Source of the DNA: a virus | Taxonomy: Duplodnaviria; Heunggongvirae; Uroviricota; Caudoviricetes | Strand: one strand, 5' to 3' | DNA length: 6,734 nt | IMG/VR virus record: IMGVR_UViG_648276647_000003 | Location: 1-6,734 of that record | In this document: one piece after another, positions 391-6,218 of the stretch | Position numbering within the stretch: the first letter of the stretch is position 1 | Layout of the letters: each line of letters opens with the position of its first letter | Position numbers and translations under genes: made by a program | The notes under the pieces: generated by a model | What the model saw: the letters and a program-made list of their open reading frames with translations, nothing else | Databases searched by the model: none | What the model was told of the DNA's origin: nothing

Positions 391-2359
391 AGATTTCCTC
401 GTCTCGCTTGGCTTCAGTGTGGATGATGCAGGAGCGAAAAAGTTCGGTTCTGTCCTCGCCGGTACAACTGCAAATGTCATCAAAATGGGACTGGCCGTTG
501 AAGGAGCTGCGCTGTCCGTGGTGGCCTTCACGGCTAAGATCGCCTCCGGCCTGGATAATCTTTACTGGGCGTCACAGCGCACCGGCGCGACGGTCCAGGG
601 AATTCAGACTATTGGCTATGCGGTTTCGCAGGTTGGCGGTAGCGTGGACGCTGCGCGATCTTCTCTGGAAAGCCTCTCCCGGTTTATTCGTAACAATCCC
701 GGTGCAGAAGGCTTTCTGAATCGCCTGGGCGTACAGACCCGTGATGCCAGCGGTAACATGCGTGACATGGCCGCTATCTTTACGGGCGTTGGACAGAAAC
801 TCAGCAGCATGCCGTATTACCGGGCTAACCAGTATGCGCAGATGCTGGGCATTGACGAAAATACCCTTATGGCGATGCGCCGGGGTGTGGGTGGTTTCTC
901 CGGGCAGTACAGCGCAATGGCGAAAGCTATCGGCTTCAATGCTGACGAGGCGGCCAGAAGCTCCAACAAATTTATGACCTCCCTGCGTGAGTTTGGCGCG
1001 ATGGCAGGCATGGCCCGTGACAAAATCGGCTCTAATCTTGCGGGTGGACTTGCGGGTTCGTTGGACACCCTGCGCCGCCATATCCTGGACAACTTCCCGC
1101 GTATCGAGCAGACCCTGACGAAAGCCATAAAAGGCATTCTGGCGCTCGGGGATATTATCGGGCGGCTGTTCTTCAGACTGATTGAAGGAACATCAGGCCT
1201 CATCACCTGGTGGCAATCGCTGGATAAGCAAACGCGGGAGTTGATCTCGCTGTTTGGCGCACTGACGATTGCGCTGCGCATTCTGAACAGTACGTTCTGG
1301 ATGTCGCCGATTGGCCTCATTACCGCGCTGGCGGCGGGGATTGCCCTCCTGTGGGAGGACTATCAGACCTGGAAGGAAGGCGGCGACAGCCTGATTGACT
1401 GGGGCAAGTGGAAACCGGAGGTTGATGCCGCGCTGAAGATGGTTCGTGACCTTAAAACGACCGTTAACGACCTGGTGAAAGCGCTGGCGAAACTGCTCAA
1501 TATTGACCCCAAATCATGGTCCCTGAAGTGGGATTTCAGCAACTTCATCGACCAGATGGGCGAATTCAGCAAAATGCTGAACATGATCGCCGACCTACTC
1601 AACGCTATCAAAGATGGCCGCTGGGTTGATGCCGTCAGCATCGGCAAACAGATACTTAATCAGGGCAGCGAAAATCCGTCAGCGATGCCGATGGTTACAG
1701 ACAGCGCTAACAGTACTGCCGACTGGATTAAAGAGCACTGGGGATTCGATCCCCGCAGCGTGGGCCGGACGGTACGCGGCTGGTTTGGTGATGATGAGCC
1801 GGAACAATATGCACAGGCTACGAAACGAGGAGAACGGAATAACAATCCGGGAAACCTTAATTTTGCTGGTCAGGTAGGGGCTTCTCTTGAACGCCCGGGC
1901 GGGCGATTTGCCAGATTTGAAACTGCTTTTGATGGATTACGGGCTCTTGCTCGTCAGTTAATGCTGTACGCCGGACGGGGAATAAACAGTGTGGAGAAAA
2001 TTATCTCTACCTGGGCACCTGCGTCTGATAATAACAACACAACTGCGTATATCAGGGCTGTATCGCAACGACTGGGAGTGGATCCCCGGGCTGCCCTGAA
2101 TATGAGCGATCCGCAAACCATGTCAGCATTGATGAGCAGCATTATCCAGCATGAAAATGGAAGAAATATCTATTCTCGAGAGCTGATTAATAAGGCTGCC
2201 GTAGCGGGAATTAGTGGCAAAGTGACAGAGGTTAACCAGCAAAATACCTACCACATTTACGGTGGCGGAGATCCGCACGCTGTCGGTAATGAGGTTGCAC
2301 GTCGGCAACAGTCTGCAAATGCTCAGGTCATGCGAAGTAATCAGGTGAGGGTGGGTTAG
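371..2359 (+). CDS. Phage tail tape measure protein (662 aa)
   Basis: Long ORF immediately after the chaperone/frameshift pair, with RBS ggagagagg a few nt before the ATG. The N-terminal two thirds is Ala/Gly/Leu-rich with hydrophobic segments (e.g. LISLFGALTIALRILNSTFWMSPIGLITALAAGIALLW) typical of tape measure proteins; a distinct C-terminal domain follows. Size and position fit a contractile-tail tape measure. Confidence 0.85.
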   Translation: MNAETIKDFLVSLGFSVDDAGAKKFGSVLAGTTANVIKMGLAVEGAALSVVAFTAKIASGLDNLYWASQRTGATVQGIQTIGYAVSQVGGSVDAARSSLESLSRFIRNNPGAEGFLNRLGVQTRDASGNMRDMAAIFTGVGQKLSSMPYYRANQYAQMLGIDENTLMAMRRGVGGFSGQYSAMAKAIGFNADEAARSSNKFMTSLREFGAMAGMARDKIGSNLAGGLAGSLDTLRRHILDNFPRIEQTLTKAIKGILALGDIIGRLFFRLIEGTSGLITWWQSLDKQTRELISLFGALTIALRILNSTFWMSPIGLITALAAGIALLWEDYQTWKEGGDSLIDWGKWKPEVDAALKMVRDLKTTVNDLVKALAKLLNIDPKSWSLKWDFSNFIDQMGEFSKMLNMIADLLNAIKDGRWVDAVSIGKQILNQGSENPSAMPMVTDSANSTADWIKEHWGFDPRSVGRTVRGWFGDDEPEQYAQATKRGERNNNPGNLNFAGQVGASLERPGGRFARFETAFDGLRALARQLMLYAGRGINSVEKIISTWAPASDNNNTTAYIRAVSQRLGVDPRAALNMSDPQTMSALMSSIIQHENGRNIYSRELINKAAVAGISGKVTEVNQQNTYHIYGGGDPHAVGNEVARRQQSANAQVMRSNQVRVG

Positions 2360-2946
2360 TGGATATTCTCTCTACACTTTTTCATCAGCAGAGTAGAAAA
2401 ATAGGAATGATTGTTCCCAGTGTTGTTATTTCAGAGAAGCATACAGATATGCTTGAAATAACAGAGCATCCGGTAGAGGTCGGGGCCGCTGTCGCTGATC
2501 ATGCCTATAAAAAACCGTCAGAAGTGGTGATGGAGGTTGGTTTTGCCGGTGGCGGCGCATTGCTGGATTTTGCCAGTAACCTGACGGCTACCAGCCTGCT
2601 CGGCCTGAGTCCTCAGCAGACGTATCAGGAGCTACTGGGTCTGCAGGAAAGCCGTATCCCCTTCGATGTGGTAACCGGTAAACGACTGTACAGCAACATG
2701 TTGATCCGGGCGCTGGAAGTGACGACGGACAAGACAACCGAAAACGTCCTGTCCGCCGTCCTCACCCTGAGGGAGGTCCTTATCTCCCGGACACAGCAGA
2801 TTACCGTCGCGGATAAAACCAACATGAAGGAAGGGGCCAGCACGTCGGCGGTACAGAACAGCGGCAACAAAACCACAAAGCCTCCAGATACTTCACTGCT
2901 GAAAAGCATCACGGGTAACGTGGCGTCATTACTGGGAGGCGGATAA
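2359..2946 (+). CDS. Phage tail/baseplate-associated protein, function unassigned (occupies the position of Mu gp43-like proteins after the tape measure)
   Basis: 195-aa ORF whose GTG start overlaps the tape measure stop (TAGTG at 2357-2361), preceded by a gaggg RBS. An alternative ATG at 2407 would give a shorter product. Family assignment is by position only. Confidence 0.55.
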   Translation: MDILSTLFHQQSRKIGMIVPSVVISEKHTDMLEITEHPVEVGAAVADHAYKKPSEVVMEVGFAGGGALLDFASNLTATSLLGLSPQQTYQELLGLQESRIPFDVVTGKRLYSNMLIRALEVTTDKTTENVLSAVLTLREVLISRTQQITVADKTNMKEGASTSAVQNSGNKTTKPPDTSLLKSITGNVASLLGGG

Positions 2947-3248
2947 TGACAATTCAGGAAATTCCGCTGACAGCGGACAATCAGCAGTTCAGCATCGTCC
3001 TGGGGGGTGTCACCTGGCGGATTAGCATCATATGGCGCGATCTTTACTGGATTATGGACCTGCAGAACGACAGAGGGGAGCCGGTAATCTCCGGTATTCC
3101 TCTCGTCACTGGTGCTGACCTGCTGGCGCAGTACGCCTGTATGGGGCTTGGTTTTAAGCTGGTGGTGGTCTGTGATGACAACACACAGGATTACCCCACA
3201 AAAACTGACCTGGGCGGTCGCAGCCATTTACTGGTATCAACGGAGTAA
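2946..3248 (+). CDS. Small phage tail/baseplate-associated protein (100 aa), function unknown
   Basis: ATG overlaps the upstream stop (ATAATG at 2944-2948) and its own stop lies 2 nt before the next ATG, so it is tightly coupled within the structural operon. Confidence 0.55.
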   Translation: MTIQEIPLTADNQQFSIVLGGVTWRISIIWRDLYWIMDLQNDRGEPVISGIPLVTGADLLAQYACMGLGFKLVVVCDDNTQDYPTKTDLGGRSHLLVSTE

Positions 3249-3250
3249 GC

Positions 3251-4321
3251 ATGTCACAGAACTGGATGAGACATTTCGAGCTGCAGCTTGTGGACGGGAA
3301 CGGTCAGGGAATTGAGCTAAGTGATTTCAAAGTCACCTTTACGATCGACTGGTTCAACATCAGCAGCGCGTCCCGGGTAGGGACTATCAAAATTTATAAC
3401 CTCTCGGCAGATACTGTGAACCGAATTACCGGGCAGGAGTTTTCGAAAGTGCGTCTGATTGCCGGTTACGACGGTATCGCGCCGGAGGTGTCAGCAAGCG
3501 ACGTAGGGACCGTGCGGGAAGTTGACGCGGCGGACGTGGGCCAGAGAGATGGCCGCAACTACGGACTGATTTTCAGCGGTGAAATTCGCTACTCGGTCAC
3601 AGGAAAAGACAGTCCGGTTGATACCTACGTCCTGATTCAGGCAGCAGATACTGATCTGGCTTTTGCCACCAGTATAACCTCACAGACGCTGGCTGCCGGT
3701 TACACGGTCGCTGATGTGAACCGTGCGCTGATGAAAGACTTCGAAGCCAAAGGCGCGACCGAAGGCCTGACGCCTGAAATGCCTGCTACTGTATTCCCCC
3801 GGGGGCGGGTACTCTTTGGCATGACGCGGCATCTAATGGATAACGTAGCCGGACAATGTGGCGCAACATGGCAATTCGTGGACGGTCAGCGCCAGATGGT
3901 GGCGAATAACGAATATGTTCATGAAGCGATTGTGCTCAACAGCGCTACCGGGCTTATTGGCATGCCGCAGCAGACCATCGGCAACGGCGTAAACGTCCGC
4001 GCGCTTATTAATCCGAACATCCGGGTTAATGGGCTCATTCAACTGGATCAGGCTTCTATCTATAAAACAGCTTTACCGAATGACGATATTGCTAAAGCAG
4101 CGGGACGTTACTTTGACGAAACAATAGATGGCAACTCTAACGTTACCCTGCCCGTGTCCAAACAAATGACGGCCAGCATCGCAACTGATGGCGTTTATAT
4201 TGTGCGCGGGATTATGTACACTGGCGACACAAGGGGCCAGGCCTGGTACATGGATATGATGTGCGAAGCGCGCGGTGCGCAGGATATGCCATCCAGCACT
4301 GCTTTGCAGAGAGGATTATAG
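3251..4321 (+). CDS. Putative baseplate hub protein (Mu gp44 / P2 gpD / T4 gp27-like), 356 aa
   Basis: 356-aa ORF located between the tape-measure-proximal proteins and the central spike, which is the conserved hub position in Mu-like tail modules. The hub assignment is positional and by size, not a verified motif match. Confidence 0.55.
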   Translation: MSQNWMRHFELQLVDGNGQGIELSDFKVTFTIDWFNISSASRVGTIKIYNLSADTVNRITGQEFSKVRLIAGYDGIAPEVSASDVGTVREVDAADVGQRDGRNYGLIFSGEIRYSVTGKDSPVDTYVLIQAADTDLAFATSITSQTLAAGYTVADVNRALMKDFEAKGATEGLTPEMPATVFPRGRVLFGMTRHLMDNVAGQCGATWQFVDGQRQMVANNEYVHEAIVLNSATGLIGMPQQTIGNGVNVRALINPNIRVNGLIQLDQASIYKTALPNDDIAKAAGRYFDETIDGNSNVTLPVSKQMTASIATDGVYIVRGIMYTGDTRGQAWYMDMMCEARGAQDMPSSTALQRGL

Positions 4322-4323
4322 AA

Positions 4324-4668
4324 ATGAAACGATGGATATTTTCATTGCTGGCGTTAGTGTCTGTTGGTGTAAGTGCAAACACCATAACGATGCAATGCGG
4401 CAACTTTCGTATGGATGCGATCCCTGACTCATTATTTAAAATCAATGGCGAAACAGTAACGTCCCAAAAAGTAAAAATGTTGGGTAAAGACGGTACAGGC
4501 ATGCAGATCAAAATGGGGCTGATGCCTGCCAAAGATGGCCACAATTATGGGTTCGAGTATATCCATCGACCGGGCACCGAAACGCGTTTCCTGAACGTCC
4601 AGCTTCTGCAGAACAGCATGGACGCGCCTAGAATCATCGGGTCTTTCCCATGCAAAAAAGTTAATTAA
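4324..4668 (+). CDS. Small secreted/periplasmic protein, paralog A (114 aa precursor); cargo (moron) gene, function unknown
   Basis: ATG at 4324 is preceded by an agagagg RBS and starts 2 nt after the hub stop. N-terminus MKRWIFSLLALVSVGVSA-NTITMQC is a typical Sec signal peptide with an AXA-type cleavage site and no lipobox. Mature protein has Cys near its N-terminus (QCG) and near its C-terminus (FPCKK). Lower GC than flanking genes by eye. The track's longer 4261 start would overlap the hub gene and place the signal peptide internally. Confidence 0.7.
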   Translation: MKRWIFSLLALVSVGVSANTITMQCGNFRMDAIPDSLFKINGETVTSQKVKMLGKDGTGMQIKMGLMPAKDGHNYGFEYIHRPGTETRFLNVQLLQNSMDAPRIIGSFPCKKVN

Positions 4669-4680
4669 CAGGGGGGATTA

Positions 4681-5046
4681 ATGAAGCGCTTAGCTCTCTT
4701 ATCTCTTGTTTTTATGTCGTATAGCGTGCTTGCAGCGCCTGTTTTGCGCTTTAAGTGCGGTGACGATAAATTTGTAATGTATGTGAATGCCTCAATGAGT
4801 AAACAGGCAGTCATAATGAACGATCAGCTAACAGAAAATTCAGCCACTGACCAGTATCCGTACGGTGACTTGGGGGATTCGGTGGTCATCACATTTGATG
4901 TATGGGGGGCGAATGGTGGGATGCATAACCACTACACAACTGTTTTCCCTAACGATTCAAAAACTATTAAACAAATAGTTCAGATTTTAGACGCAGATGA
5001 TCGCCCCCGTGGTGATGCCATCTATAAGACCTGCACGAAAATGTAG
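4681..5046 (+). CDS. Small secreted/periplasmic protein, paralog B (121 aa precursor); cargo (moron) gene, function unknown
   Basis: RBS gggggga lies just upstream of the ATG at 4681. Signal peptide MKRLALLSLVFMSYSVLA-APVLRFKC. Mature protein has the same two-Cys layout as paralog A (KCG ... KTCTK) and a shared C-terminal block (VQIL...PR...C.K versus VQLL...PR...C.K in A). AT-rich by eye. Confidence 0.7.
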   Translation: MKRLALLSLVFMSYSVLAAPVLRFKCGDDKFVMYVNASMSKQAVIMNDQLTENSATDQYPYGDLGDSVVITFDVWGANGGMHNHYTTVFPNDSKTIKQIVQILDADDRPRGDAIYKTCTKM

Positions 5047-5071
5047 GAACCTTATCGCAGACACCATTTAA

Positions 5072-5093
5072 CCCGCCACCCGGCGGGTTTTTT
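5072..5093 (+). terminator. Rho-independent terminator: 6-bp GC stem cccgcc/ggcggg, 4-nt loop, T6 tract
   Basis: cccgcc(5072-5077) accc ggcggg(5082-5087) tttttt(5088-5093), beginning 26 nt after the paralog B stop codon. Confidence 0.6.
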
Positions 5094-5112
5094 GCTTTCT
5101 GGAGCCTACTAA

Positions 5113-5865
5113 ATGGCAGTATCTGACCAGACCCGCAGCGGCGACCTTGCCGAAACATTCAAATCTGAACGGGAAACAACAAAGAACCAGATCCGTGTCG
5201 CCTTGCCTGGCATTATTCAGTCATTCGATCCTGACGCGGTGACGGCGGTTGTGCAGCCAGCTATCCGTTCGGTTGAAAAGGATAACTACGGTAACCGCAT
5301 TACCAAAAATTACCCATTGCTGGTGGATGTGCCAGTGGTATTCCCGCGCGGCGGAGGCTGTACGTTGACTTTTCCGGTAAAAGCCGGGGATGAGTGTCTT
5401 GTCGTTTTTGCCGATCGTTGTATTGATTTCTGGTGGCAGAGTGGCGGGATACAGGAGCCAGTCGATGACAGAATGCATGATTTATCGGATGCGTTTTGTA
5501 TTGTCGGTCCCCAGTCGCAGGCAAGGAAGATTAGCGGTATTAATACCAGTGCCACACAGTTGCGTAGTGACGACGGCAGCACCTATTTTGAGCTTAATCC
5601 TGATACCAGGAAAATTAAAATTGTCGCTCCGGGTGGTCTTGATGTGGTTGCCCCTCTGGCTGATTTTTCTGAGAAAGTAACCATTCATGGCCTGTTAACC
5701 TGGATGGGTGGCATGGTGGGGTCTGTTGTTTCTGGTGTGGCTTCAAAAATCACTGGTGCTGTTGAGTTTTTGGGGAGCGTGAAGGCTAACGGCAAGCCAA
5801 TCGATGATACGCACACTCATGGCGGTGTTCAGCGCGGTGGAAGCAGTACCGACGGGGTAAACTGA
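5113..5865 (+). CDS. Baseplate central spike protein (P2 gpV / Mu gp45 / gp138-like), 250 aa
   Basis: RBS ggag lies 8 nt upstream of the ATG. The N-terminal OB-fold region (PLLVDVPVVFPRGGGCTLTFPVKAGDECLVVFADRCIDFWW...RMHDLSDAFCIVG) matches the hallmark pattern of gpV-type spikes. The Gly-rich C-terminus contains HTHGG, resembling the His-containing apex of spike proteins. Confidence 0.85.
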   Translation: MAVSDQTRSGDLAETFKSERETTKNQIRVALPGIIQSFDPDAVTAVVQPAIRSVEKDNYGNRITKNYPLLVDVPVVFPRGGGCTLTFPVKAGDECLVVFADRCIDFWWQSGGIQEPVDDRMHDLSDAFCIVGPQSQARKISGINTSATQLRSDDGSTYFELNPDTRKIKIVAPGGLDVVAPLADFSEKVTIHGLLTWMGGMVGSVVSGVASKITGAVEFLGSVKANGKPIDDTHTHGGVQRGGSSTDGVN

Positions 5866-6218
5866 TGCGATACAGACGTGAAGACGCCGATGGCGATTAC
5901 ACCTTTGGCAGCGGTGATGACACCTGGCTGATTAACTCACCGGAGGCCGTGGCGCAGGCGGTAAAAACGCGATTCGAATTGTGGTATGGGCAATGGTTTC
6001 TCGACACCACCGAGGGGACTCCGTGGATCCAGTCCGTACTCGGTAAGCAGAAGCCGGAAACCTACAACCTGGCGATCAGAAAACGCATTCTGGAAACGCA
6101 GGGCGTTAAATCAATCCTCTCTTTCAATACGACGGTGGATACCACGACCCGACGTGTCATGTTTTCCGCTGAAATCGACACTCTCTATGGAATAACGACT
6201 GTTACATCGGAGGCGTAA
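5865..6218 (+). CDS. Small baseplate wedge protein (Mu gp46 / P2 gpW / T4 gp25-like position), 117 aa
   Basis: ATG overlaps the spike stop (TGATG at 5863-5867). Size and position between spike and baseplate J fit the gp25-like wedge protein; a TRFELWYG segment loosely resembles the gpW motif. Family assignment is tentative. Confidence 0.6.
   Translation: MRYRREDADGDYTFGSGDDTWLINSPEAVAQAVKTRFELWYGQWFLDTTEGTPWIQSVLGKQKPETYNLAIRKRILETQGVKSILSFNTTVDTTTRRVMFSAEIDTLYGITTVTSEA

What the first reader, a model, noticed from the sequence alone, without database searches (positions are those of the whole stretch)
4324..5046. The two cargo proteins are diverged tandem paralogs with a conserved N-proximal and C-proximal cysteine pair
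After signal peptide removal both proteins are about 100 aa. Each has a Cys-Gly near the mature N-terminus (A: TMQCGNFRM; B: RFKCGDDKF) and a Cys a few residues from the C-terminus. Their C-terminal blocks align with identical spacing: A VQLLQNSMDAPRIIGSFPCKK versus B VQILDADDRPRGDAIYKTCTK, each with 14 residues between the VQ(L/I)L block and the Cys. A mid-region is also alignable (A KDGHNYGFEY versus B NGGMHNHYTTV). This indicates an ancient tandem duplication and a single end-to-end disulfide in an oxidising compartment, i.e. a small periplasmic domain present in two specificities. Tandem diverged periplasmic paralogs are characteristic of inhibitor or immunity gene arrays.
Basis: seen in the sequence. 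Interest (0 to 1): 0.65.

Follow-up and report, generated by a model that had tools for sequence, protein, structure and literature searches.

The report
Two exported beta-barrel proteins in prophage
Two small exported proteins encoded between the baseplate-hub and tail-spike genes of an E. coli prophage share one predicted fold (an eight-stranded barrel probably closed by one disulfide) and may be very distant relatives, but they are not a duplicated gene array: the first is a fixed gene of this phage group, the second is rare swappable cargo, and neither has a known function.

Summary
Gene A is 4324-4668 (114 aa) and gene B is 4681-5046 (121 aa). Both have Sec-type signal peptides. Both have one Cys near the mature N-terminus and one near the C-terminus, invariant in each family, and 14 residues separate VQ(L/I)L from the last Cys in both.

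Pairwise similarity is at chance level: BLASTP E=5 and shuffle p=0.43. A first profile match (E 4e-5) came from the signal peptides. With broader, mature-only profiles a weak end-to-end match remains (hhalign E about 1e-3 to 1e-2, probability below 8%). It beats every column or strand-block shuffle. It also places the eight predicted strands of A on the eight of B.

AlphaFold models (pLDDT 86 and 79) are both eight-stranded meander barrels. They share 40 of their top 60 PDB neighbours: avidins, Cap15, DUF1842 and PliC.

Comparative genomics argues against an in-situ tandem duplication or an immunity array. A follows the hub gene in about 300 E. coli genomes and in related Salmonella, Klebsiella, Yersinia, Serratia and Photorhabdus prophages. 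B occurs in 5 of 5,426 E. coli genomes, in a hypervariable slot, and once without A. No toxin gene lies nearby.

The function is unknown. A periplasmic binder or inhibitor, possibly for superinfection exclusion, is an inference only.

The parts
3251..4321 (+). Baseplate hub gene (356 aa). It is the conserved upstream anchor of the accessory slot.
   Evidence: phrog_196 baseplate hub, E 1.5e-89. Weak Pfam E217_GP41 hit. The stop codon lies 2 nt before the start of A.
4324..4668 (+). Gene A: 114-aa exported protein of family phrog_3443. The mature domain is predicted to be an eight-stranded beta-barrel. It is the constant first gene after the hub in this phage group.
4324..4377 (+). Signal peptide of A (aa 1-18, MKRWIFSLLALVSVGVSA). 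The cleavage site after VSA is inferred.
   Evidence: Read directly from the translation. pLDDT is low over residues 1-20 and there is no strand before residue 21. No signal-peptide predictor was available.
4396..4398 (+). Codon of A Cys25, at the end of strand 1 (Cys-Gly turn).
   Evidence: Invariant in 71 family members. Strand 1 is residues 21-25.
4651..4653 (+). Codon of A Cys110, in strand 8.
   Evidence: Invariant in 71 family members. Strand 8 is residues 103-113.
4681..5046 (+). Gene B: 121-aa exported protein of a very small family. The mature domain is predicted to be an eight-stranded beta-barrel. It is rare cargo in the variable second slot.
4681..4734 (+). Signal peptide of B (aa 1-18, MKRLALLSLVFMSYSVLA). 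The cleavage site after VLA is inferred.
   Evidence: Read directly from the translation. The model shows a helix at 3-13 and then the first strand from residue 21.
4756..4758 (+). Codon of B Cys26, at the end of strand 1.
   Evidence: Present in every full-length B-family member, including the distant P0136-P0140.
5032..5034 (+). Codon of B Cys118, in strand 8.
   Evidence: Invariant. Strand 8 is residues 114-120.
5070..5099 (+). Intrinsic-terminator-like hairpin (AACCCGCC-ACCC-GGCGGGTT plus a T run). It closes the accessory cassette just before the spike gene.
   Evidence: Terminator scan. RNA fold -20.7 kcal/mol, z -4.3. The same hairpin precedes the spike gene in the E. coli, Salmonella, Klebsiella and Yersinia relatives whose intergenic sequence was read. 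It follows B in Serratia, where the cassette lies before the hub.
5113..5865 (+). Membrane-puncturing baseplate spike gene (250 aa). It is the conserved downstream anchor of the slot.
   Evidence: Pfam N-terminal spike domain, E 1.4e-44, plus the GpV Apex motif. RefSeq annotates it as a spike protein.

Best explanation
The window is the tail-tip and baseplate module of a SEN34-like (Brunovirus-like) temperate myophage integrated in E. coli. An accessory cassette sits between the baseplate-hub and spike genes and ends in a conserved terminator hairpin.

Slot 1 of the cassette holds gene A. A is present in nearly every relative examined, and its start abuts or overlaps the hub stop codon. Slot 2 is a hypervariable site for exchangeable cargo. 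In this prophage it holds gene B, a rare family.

Both proteins are exported by Sec. Each mature domain of about 100 aa is predicted to fold into an eight-stranded up-and-down beta-barrel. Strands 1 and 8 each carry an invariant Cys, so a single disulfide probably staples the barrel shut in the periplasm.

A and B are best read as members of two separate families with the same architecture. They are possibly very remote homologues. They were brought side by side by cassette exchange, not by duplication at this locus.

The most conserved segments of both families are the strand 5-6 and strand 7-8 loops at one end of the barrel: A has PAKDGNNYG and NSMDAPK, B has WGANGGMHNHY and DADxxPRGD. I therefore infer that each protein uses that end to bind a periplasmic or envelope target. 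The most likely purpose is interference with envelope steps of phage infection (superinfection exclusion). The target, the binding and the phenotype are all untested.
For: Shown by tool results:
- Gene identities and order.
- The region is 100% identical to E. coli C25 and is annotated there as prophage tail genes.
- A-family genes follow the hub in E. coli, Salmonella phage SEN34, Klebsiella phages, and Yersinia, Photorhabdus and Serratia ureilytica prophages.
- The start of A abuts or overlaps the hub stop codon (coordinates).
- Slot 2 differs between relatives.
- B is in 5 of 5,426 E. coli genomes; the A region is in 304.
- A and B have low GC.
- The terminator is conserved.
- Both AlphaFold models are eight-stranded barrels.
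- The cysteines are invariant in both families.
- Mature-only hhalign scores are 19.1 local and 18.8 global. Column shuffles give 11.3±2.4 and 3.0±2.5. None of 200 column shuffles or 150 block shuffles reaches the observed score.
- The profile alignment puts strand on strand: 83% agreement in strand/non-strand state at shift 0, falling to 32-38% at shifts of 6-9.

Inferred, not shown:
- Signal-peptide cleavage, the disulfide, the binding surface and the function.

From the literature:
- Exclusion proteins are known to act in the envelope and can be encoded beside tail genes. T4 Spackle inhibits the gp5 tail lysozyme (PMC7677548). T5 Llp blocks the receptor FhuA (PMC9586334).
Against: - Pairwise similarity is at chance level.
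- hhalign probability is only 4.6-7.4%.
- The B-profile search of 1.84 billion proteins did not reach the A family.
- Eight-stranded meander barrels arise repeatedly in evolution, so a shared fold plus a weak profile signal does not prove homology.
- I could not superpose the two models directly, because no coordinates are returned and the AlphaFold database library was not available.
- B's model rests on only 12 sequences.
- No sigma-70-like promoter was found in 4100-5300. Together with the abutting or overlapping hub stop and A start, this suggests late-operon expression, so expression from the prophage, which a lysogen-protecting role needs, is not shown.
- A is conserved whether the tape-measure protein ends in an SLT transglycosylase module or in a different module. 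This argues against the most obvious specific target.
- No PADLOC defence model matches.
Confidence: 0.55

Rival explanations
1. A and B are diverged tandem paralogs made by an ancient duplication at this locus. They form a two-member array of periplasmic inhibitor or immunity proteins with different specificities.
For: - The genes are adjacent, on the same strand and 12 nt apart.
- They have the same predicted fold and the same Cys placement.
- There is a weak co-linear profile signal.
- A plus B, or an A domain plus B, co-occur in three of the four B-family contexts seen: E. coli C25, Yersinia, and E. coli L013/L014.
Against: - A occurs without B in about 300 E. coli genomes and in many genera.
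- B occurs without A in Serratia fonticola.
- Slot 2 holds unrelated genes elsewhere.
- No locus has extra copies.
- No toxin or effector domain lies nearby.
- There is no pairwise significance.
- The A family is unusually conserved, with 68% mean column identity across genera. Fast-evolving immunity proteins do not usually look like this.
Confidence: 0.12
2. A and B are unrelated families that converged on the common eight-stranded meander barrel. They lie together only because slot 2 accepts any small gene. The shared end cysteines and the VQ(L/I)L match are coincidence or a common structural solution.
For: - BLASTP E=5 and local shuffle p=0.43.
- With the first, narrower profiles, the mature-only hhalign score was inside the shuffle range: 82 of 300 shuffles reached it.
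- VQLL is not conserved in divergent members.
- The large profile search did not link the two families.
Against: - The broader profiles give scores above all 200 column shuffles and all 300 strand-block shuffles, including those with the end blocks fixed.
- The alignment is end to end with few gaps and matches strand to strand.
- A D-x-P-[RK] element lies in the strand 7-8 loop of both families.
Confidence: 0.3
3. A, B or both are periplasmic lysozyme or muramidase inhibitors of the PliC/MliC type. They would protect the lysogen's cell wall from host lysozyme or from the muralytic domain of incoming phage tails.
For: - The proteins are predicted to be periplasmic.
- Tape-measure proteins of relatives carry an SLT domain.
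- T4 Spackle is a precedent for a periplasmic inhibitor of a tail lysozyme (PMC7677548).
Against: - No Pfam MliC hit and no other family hit.
- Avidins, Cap15 and DUF1842 score higher than PliC, so the resemblance is a general fold resemblance.
- A is equally conserved in prophages whose tape-measure protein lacks the SLT module.
Confidence: 0.1
4. A is not cargo. It is a late phage function needed by the phage itself, for example to mask the receptor on lysing cells as T5 Llp does, or to act in the periplasm at lysis. Only B is a moron.
For: - A is constant in position across genera and its start abuts or overlaps the hub stop codon.
- No promoter-like site was found.
- Its sequence is highly conserved.
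Against: - A has the same low GC as B, unlike the structural genes.
- In Serratia fonticola the cassette lacks A and holds another secreted protein in its place.
- A 296-aa lipoprotein carrying a C-terminal A domain replaces A in some E. coli prophages.
Confidence: 0.2

Closest known systems
Avidin/streptavidin-like and related eight-stranded meander beta-barrels: streptavidin 6qsy, zebavidin 4bj8, the Cap15 barrel 7n34, DUF1842 8t0b, and Burkholderia 5hal
   Different: Sequence identity is 4-14%. There is no Pfam match and no evidence of biotin or nucleotide binding. A and B are exported and carry a Cys pair on strands 1 and 8. This is a fold-class resemblance only, not family membership.
PliC/MliC periplasmic lysozyme inhibitors (Pfam PF09864; 4mir, 3oe3, 2f09; Brucella PhiA 7dpy)
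   Different: There is no HMM match. They rank lower than the avidins. Inhibitory activity is untested, and A is conserved regardless of the muralytic module of the tape-measure protein.
Phage superinfection-exclusion proteins that act in the envelope: T4 Spackle (PMC7677548) and T5 Llp (PMC9586334). From my own knowledge: Cor of T1/phi80-type phages and Ltp of Streptococcus phage TP-J34.
   Same: Small phage-encoded proteins exported by a signal peptide. Several are encoded next to tail or receptor-binding genes. They act by binding a tail enzyme or the receptor.
   Different: There is no sequence relationship. The PDB fold searches of both models did not list Spackle or Llp among the top 60 neighbours. 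Llp, Cor and Ltp are lipoproteins, whereas A and B have no lipobox. No exclusion phenotype is known for A or B.
Accessory-gene (moron or defence) hotspots of temperate phages, for example the P2 and P4 hotspots (PMC9122126)
   Same: A fixed site between conserved genes where unrelated cargo genes alternate between otherwise similar prophages. Cargo has low GC and a terminator bounds the site.
   Different: The site lies inside the baseplate operon of SEN34-like myophages, between hub and spike. To my knowledge it has not been described; my literature searches found nothing on it. None of the cargo seen here matches a PADLOC model (tested for A and B only).

Membership tests
Diverged tandem paralogs (duplication at this locus) | Statistically significant sequence similarity between the two neighbouring genes | tested here: inconclusive
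   Pairwise, not significant: BLASTP E=5 and Smith-Waterman shuffle p=0.43. Mature-only profiles give hhalign E 0.0013-0.0088 and probability 4.6-7.4%, but scores above all shuffles, z 3.3-7.2. Narrower profiles gave no signal.
Diverged tandem paralogs (duplication at this locus) | Same three-dimensional fold | tested here: met
Diverged tandem paralogs (duplication at this locus) | The two genes are inherited together, or vary in copy number, across relatives | tested here: not met
   A without B in about 300 E. coli genomes; B in 5 of 5,426. B without A in Serratia fonticola. No extra copies in 16 loci.
Immunity or inhibitor gene array (toxin-immunity type) | An adjacent cognate toxin, effector or enzyme gene | tested here: not met
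PliC/MliC lysozyme inhibitors (PF09864) | Match to the family HMM | tested here: not met
   Pfam scan at E up to 0.1: no family for A, and only an insignificant GMPPB_C hit for B. NCBIfam gave none.
PliC/MliC lysozyme inhibitors (PF09864) | Eight-stranded periplasmic beta-barrel fold | tested here: met
PliC/MliC lysozyme inhibitors (PF09864) | Inhibition of c-type lysozyme | not testable with these tools
   Needs an enzyme assay with purified protein.
Avidin family (biotin-binding barrels) | Match to the family HMM or the biotin-binding residues | tested here: not met
Phage moron or accessory cargo | Presence/absence polymorphism between otherwise collinear phages | tested here: met
   Met for B and slot 2. 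Only rarely met for A, which is replaced in L010 and fused in L013.
Phage moron or accessory cargo | Base composition different from the surrounding genes | tested here: met
   GC is 0.449 for A and 0.434 for B, against 0.50-0.54 for the flanking genes.
Phage moron or accessory cargo | Own promoter and terminator | tested here: inconclusive
   A strong, conserved terminator is present. No sigma-70 consensus match in 4100-5300. The start of A abuts or overlaps the hub stop codon.
Sec-exported, disulfide-bonded periplasmic protein | N-terminal signal peptide with an AxA-type cleavage site | tested here: met
   Read from the sequence: VSA|N in A and VLA|A in B. It is conserved as a hydrophobic N-terminus across both families. 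No dedicated predictor was available.
Sec-exported, disulfide-bonded periplasmic protein | A disulfide actually formed and dependent on DsbA | not testable with these tools
   Only the invariance of the two cysteines, and their position on the neighbouring strands 1 and 8, could be shown.

The most novel reading that the evidence does not exclude
A and B belong to one undescribed superfamily of phage-encoded, disulfide-stapled periplasmic beta-barrels. These would act as envelope-level superinfection-exclusion factors by binding, through the conserved loops at one end of the barrel, a part of the incoming tail tip or the host component it uses. The site between the hub and spike genes of SEN34-like myophages would then be a dedicated, previously unrecognised hotspot for such envelope-acting cargo.
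Probability: 0.2. Interest if true: 0.55.

Novelty: new member of a known kind. Interest (0 to 1): 0.3.

Why it matters
If followed up, the locus offers three things:
- A conserved exported phage protein (A, hundreds of prophages across Enterobacterales) with no known function.
- A clean example of an accessory-gene hotspot inside a baseplate operon.
- A possible new fold family for envelope-level phage exclusion.

As it stands, this is an ordinary pair of uncharacterised prophage cargo genes. The specific claim that made it look interesting, a duplicated immunity-type array, is not borne out.

Tried and rejected
1. Full-length profile-profile comparison gave E 4.3e-5 and probability 69%. I rejected it as evidence, because removing the signal peptides dropped the score into the shuffle range.
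2. Pfam, NCBIfam, PADLOC and PHROGs scans gave no functional name.
3. HMM searches of PDB sequences found only chance hits, E at least 0.09.
4. The B profile against 1.84 billion representatives gave 7 hits. None was from the A family, and one (P0141) was a spurious Ig-repeat protein.
5. Foldseek of model B against viral structures found nothing at E up to 1e-3. The best hit was a Serratia phage Scapp lipoprotein, TM about 0.5. No hit from a phage known here to carry an A-family gene was listed among the top 50.
7. The idea that A inhibits the SLT domain of the tape-measure protein is weakened, because A is conserved whether that C-terminal module is SLT or something else.
8. Literature searches for the RefSeq accessions and for SEN34 turned up no functional study.
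9. Rfam found nothing in the window.
Full report
**What the window is**

The 6,734-base window is the tail-tip and baseplate part of a temperate myophage integrated in E. coli. It is 100% identical to the chromosome of E. coli strain C25, where it is annotated as prophage tail genes.

The gene order on the + strand is:

| Coordinates | Gene |
|---|---|
| 371-2359 | tape-measure protein |
| 2359-2946 | Dit-like baseplate protein |
| 2946-3248 | baseplate plug |
| 3251-4321 | baseplate hub |
| 4324-4668 | gene A |
| 4681-5046 | gene B |
| 5070-5099 | terminator-like hairpin |
| 5113-5865 | membrane-puncturing spike |
| 5865-6218 | 117-aa protein; its 117-aa counterparts in relatives hit Pfam Sheath_initiator |
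| 6218 onwards | baseplate J |

The closest described phages are Salmonella phage SEN34 (genus Brunovirus) and several Klebsiella temperate phages.

**Checking the observation**

- A is 114 aa and B is 121 aa.
- Both start with a charged N-terminus, a hydrophobic core and an AxA-like site: VSA|N in A and VLA|A in B. The mature proteins are 96 and 103 aa.
- A has Cys25-Gly26 and Cys110. B has Cys26-Gly27 and Cys118.
- In both, 14 residues separate VQLL/VQIL from the last Cys.
- Both cysteines are invariant in 71 A-family sequences and are present in every full-length B-family sequence, including five distant ones.

**Is the similarity more than chance?**

At the pairwise level it is not:
- BLASTP finds only the C-terminal 23 residues, at E=5.
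- With 5,000 shuffles, the local alignment score of the mature proteins is average (p=0.43). The global score is marginal (z=2.05, p=0.03).

A first profile-profile comparison looked good: E 4.3e-5, probability 69%, 100 aligned columns. It was driven by the two signal peptides. After trimming them the score fell to 12.65, and 82 of 300 column shuffles did as well.

I then widened both profiles:
- The A profile gained divergent A-family proteins from Klebsiella and Citrobacter phages, a Yersinia prophage, and the C-terminal domain of a 296-aa E. coli lipoprotein.
- The B profile gained the five distant relatives found in the search of 1.84 billion representatives.

With these mature-only profiles:
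- hhalign gives an end-to-end alignment with a local score of 19.1 (E 0.0088) and a global score of 18.8 (E 0.0013). Its own probability is only 4.6-7.4%.
- None of 200 column shuffles reached these scores: z=3.3 local and z=6.3 global.
- No permutation of the eight strand-plus-loop blocks of B reached them either. Across 150 full permutations, z was 4.7 local and 4.2 global. Across 150 permutations with the two end blocks fixed, z was 7.2.
- Cross-family HMM-to-sequence p-values are only 0.006-0.1.
- The B profile did not retrieve any A-family protein from 1.84 billion sequences.

So there is a weak, co-linear signal that is unlikely to be pure chance, but it is far below what would prove homology. 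What both families do share in that region is a D-x-P-[RK] element in the loop after that strand.

**Structure**

| | A | B |
|---|---|---|
| Sequences in the alignment | 71 | 12 |
| Mean pLDDT | 85.8 | 79.2 |
| pTM | 0.73 | 0.68 |

Both models are all-beta with eight strands in the same order and with similar lengths. The third strand of A is short and split in the model.

The hhalign global alignment used no structural information. It places the eight predicted strands of A on the eight of B. Aligned positions agree in strand/non-strand state 83% of the time at shift 0, and only 32-38% of the time when one protein is slid by 6-9 residues.

In both models the first Cys ends strand 1 and the last Cys lies in strand 8. 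These are the two strands that close a meander barrel, so a single stapling disulfide is geometrically plausible. I could not measure the distance, because coordinates are not returned.

The first (no pairwise significance) is met.

**Genomic context: the main correction**

Gene A is a fixed feature of this phage group:
- A search with the region from the 3' end of the hub gene to the start of the spike gene (4200-5120) matched in 304 of 5,426 complete E. coli genomes, at 446 places.
- A-family genes, down to 30% identity, sit directly after the hub gene in E. coli, Salmonella phage SEN34, Klebsiella phages, and Yersinia, Photorhabdus and Serratia ureilytica prophages.
- The start of A often overlaps the hub stop codon. 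In the window the gap is 2 nt.
- The family has 332 clusters at 90% identity, all named ones from Enterobacterales, and corresponds to phrog_3443 of unknown function.

Gene B is rare:
- It has 15 clusters among 5.8 billion proteins and 7 representatives among 1.84 billion.
- It has no match in 50,697 phage records.
- It is present in 5 of 5,426 E. coli genomes.

In relatives, the place of B is taken by unrelated genes:
- a DUF2335 membrane protein;
- a 184-aa membrane protein plus a 56-aa protein;
- a reverse-strand 121-aa protein;
- membrane-anchored proteins of 138 and 168 aa;
- a reverse-strand 222-aa gene annotated as a HypF-finger protein;
- a ParE toxin gene with an adjacent small gene, probably its antitoxin;
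- a T4 Y11B-like protein.

The four contexts in which B-family genes were found:

| Host | Arrangement |
|---|---|
| E. coli C25 type | A then B |
| Yersinia | A then B |
| E. coli L013/L014 | 296-aa lipoprotein with a C-terminal A domain, then B |
| Serratia fonticola | an unrelated 113-aa secreted protein, then B, then the terminator, all between plug and hub (no A) |

HMMs of both families found no additional copies in any of the 16 loci.

A and B both have lower GC (0.449 and 0.434) than the flanking tail genes (0.50-0.54).

The terminator hairpin is conserved in every relative whose intergenic sequence was read, just upstream of the spike gene. In Serratia it follows B, so it marks the 3' boundary of the cassette.

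This pattern is a constant gene plus a hypervariable cargo slot. It is not a duplicated array. No toxin or enzyme gene that would need an immunity protein lies nearby.

**What they probably do**

Nothing names a function:
- no Pfam, NCBIfam or PADLOC match;
- no PDB sequence relative;
- no literature on these proteins.

From the anatomy I infer exported, disulfide-stapled barrels that bind something in the periplasm. The best-conserved segments of both families are the strand 5-6 and strand 7-8 loops. In a meander barrel these lie at the same end:
- A: PAKDGNNYG and NSMDAPK.
- B: WGANGGMHNHY and DADxxPRGD, with His82, Asp104, Asp106 and Arg110 conserved across the whole family.

The likeliest purpose is interference with envelope steps of phage infection. 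The reasons are:
- the genes sit in the tail-tip module;
- the neighbouring slot carries envelope proteins and a toxin-antitoxin pair;
- there are precedents for exported exclusion proteins that bind a tail lysozyme (T4 Spackle, PMC7677548) or the receptor (T5 Llp, PMC9586334).

This is inference only, and several observations count against it:
- No promoter-like site was found, and A appears coupled to the late operon. Expression in the lysogen is therefore unproven.
- The obvious candidate target is the muralytic C-terminal module of the tape-measure protein. That module differs between prophages that carry equally conserved A proteins: it is SLT in Yersinia and some E. coli prophages, and an unannotated module in this window.
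- A PliC-like lysozyme-inhibitor role is possible at the fold level, but the family HMM does not match.

**Novelty and verdict**

These are uncharacterised families, and B has no PHROG at all. Their kind is familiar: small exported prophage cargo proteins in an accessory hotspot.

- The claim of a shared domain is plausible at the level of fold and is weakly supported at the level of sequence profiles.
- The claim of a tandem duplication, or of an inhibitor or immunity array, is not supported.

Interest is modest. The most useful leads are the widely conserved gene A and the hub-to-spike hotspot itself.

Noticed in passing
window 1829-2359 (tape-measure protein, aa 487-662); compare L008 692-2695: The tape-measure proteins of this prophage and of a Yersinia relative are 60% identical over aa 1-486 and then diverge completely. 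The relative ends in an SLT transglycosylase domain (Pfam E 7e-24). The window has a different C-terminal module, containing RNNNPGNLNF, with no Pfam hit. This looks like a swap of the cell-wall-acting module.
   Followed up: partly
window 5070-5099; L002, L003, L004, L005, L006, L008, L013 upstream of the spike gene; L010 about 4420-4450: A GC-rich hairpin plus T run (ACCCGCC..GGCGGGTTTTTT) is conserved just upstream of the spike gene across E. coli, Salmonella, Klebsiella and Yersinia prophages, whatever cargo precedes it. In Serratia fonticola it follows B, ahead of the hub. A terminator inside a late tail operon implies read-through or antitermination, and it may also serve as the recombination boundary of the cassette.
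   Followed up: partly
L013 and L014, 3107-3997: In some E. coli prophages the gene after the hub encodes a 296-aa protein. It has a lipoprotein-type signal (LLVSGC) and an about 100-aa C-terminal domain of the A family. It is followed by a B-family gene. The A domain therefore also exists tethered to a membrane.
   Followed up: partly
L010-L012 (Serratia fonticola), 3646-4378: Here the cassette lies between the plug and hub genes, not between hub and spike. It holds an unrelated 113-aa secreted protein with two cysteines, followed by B.
   Followed up: no
L016 4314-4927; L015 3895-4950; L002 3301-3873; L003 3480-4208; L007 3378-4046: The second slot between A and the spike is a hotspot with very varied cargo: a ParE toxin with its partner, a T4 Y11B-like protein, a DUF2335 membrane protein, other membrane proteins, and a zinc-finger-like protein on the opposite strand.
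   Followed up: partly
L005 (Salmonella phage SEN34, NC_028699) 3001-3342: The deposited annotation of SEN34_20 starts at locus position 3109 (77 aa). This cuts off the signal peptide and the first Cys. The A-family reading frame extends to position 3001, where it has an alternative start codon.
   Followed up: no
alignments A1 and A2 (full-length A and B): Method warning. Two unrelated-looking exported proteins gave hhalign E 4e-5 and 69% probability only because their signal peptides align. Trimming the signal peptides removed the signal.
   Followed up: yes
B residues 76-85 and 104-112 (window about 4906-4935 and 4990-5016): The B family keeps a His/Asp-rich pair of loops, GGMHNHY and DADDRPRGD. 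His82, Asp104, Asp106 and Arg110 are conserved even in the most distant members. This would suit a metal site or a charged binding site.
   Followed up: no
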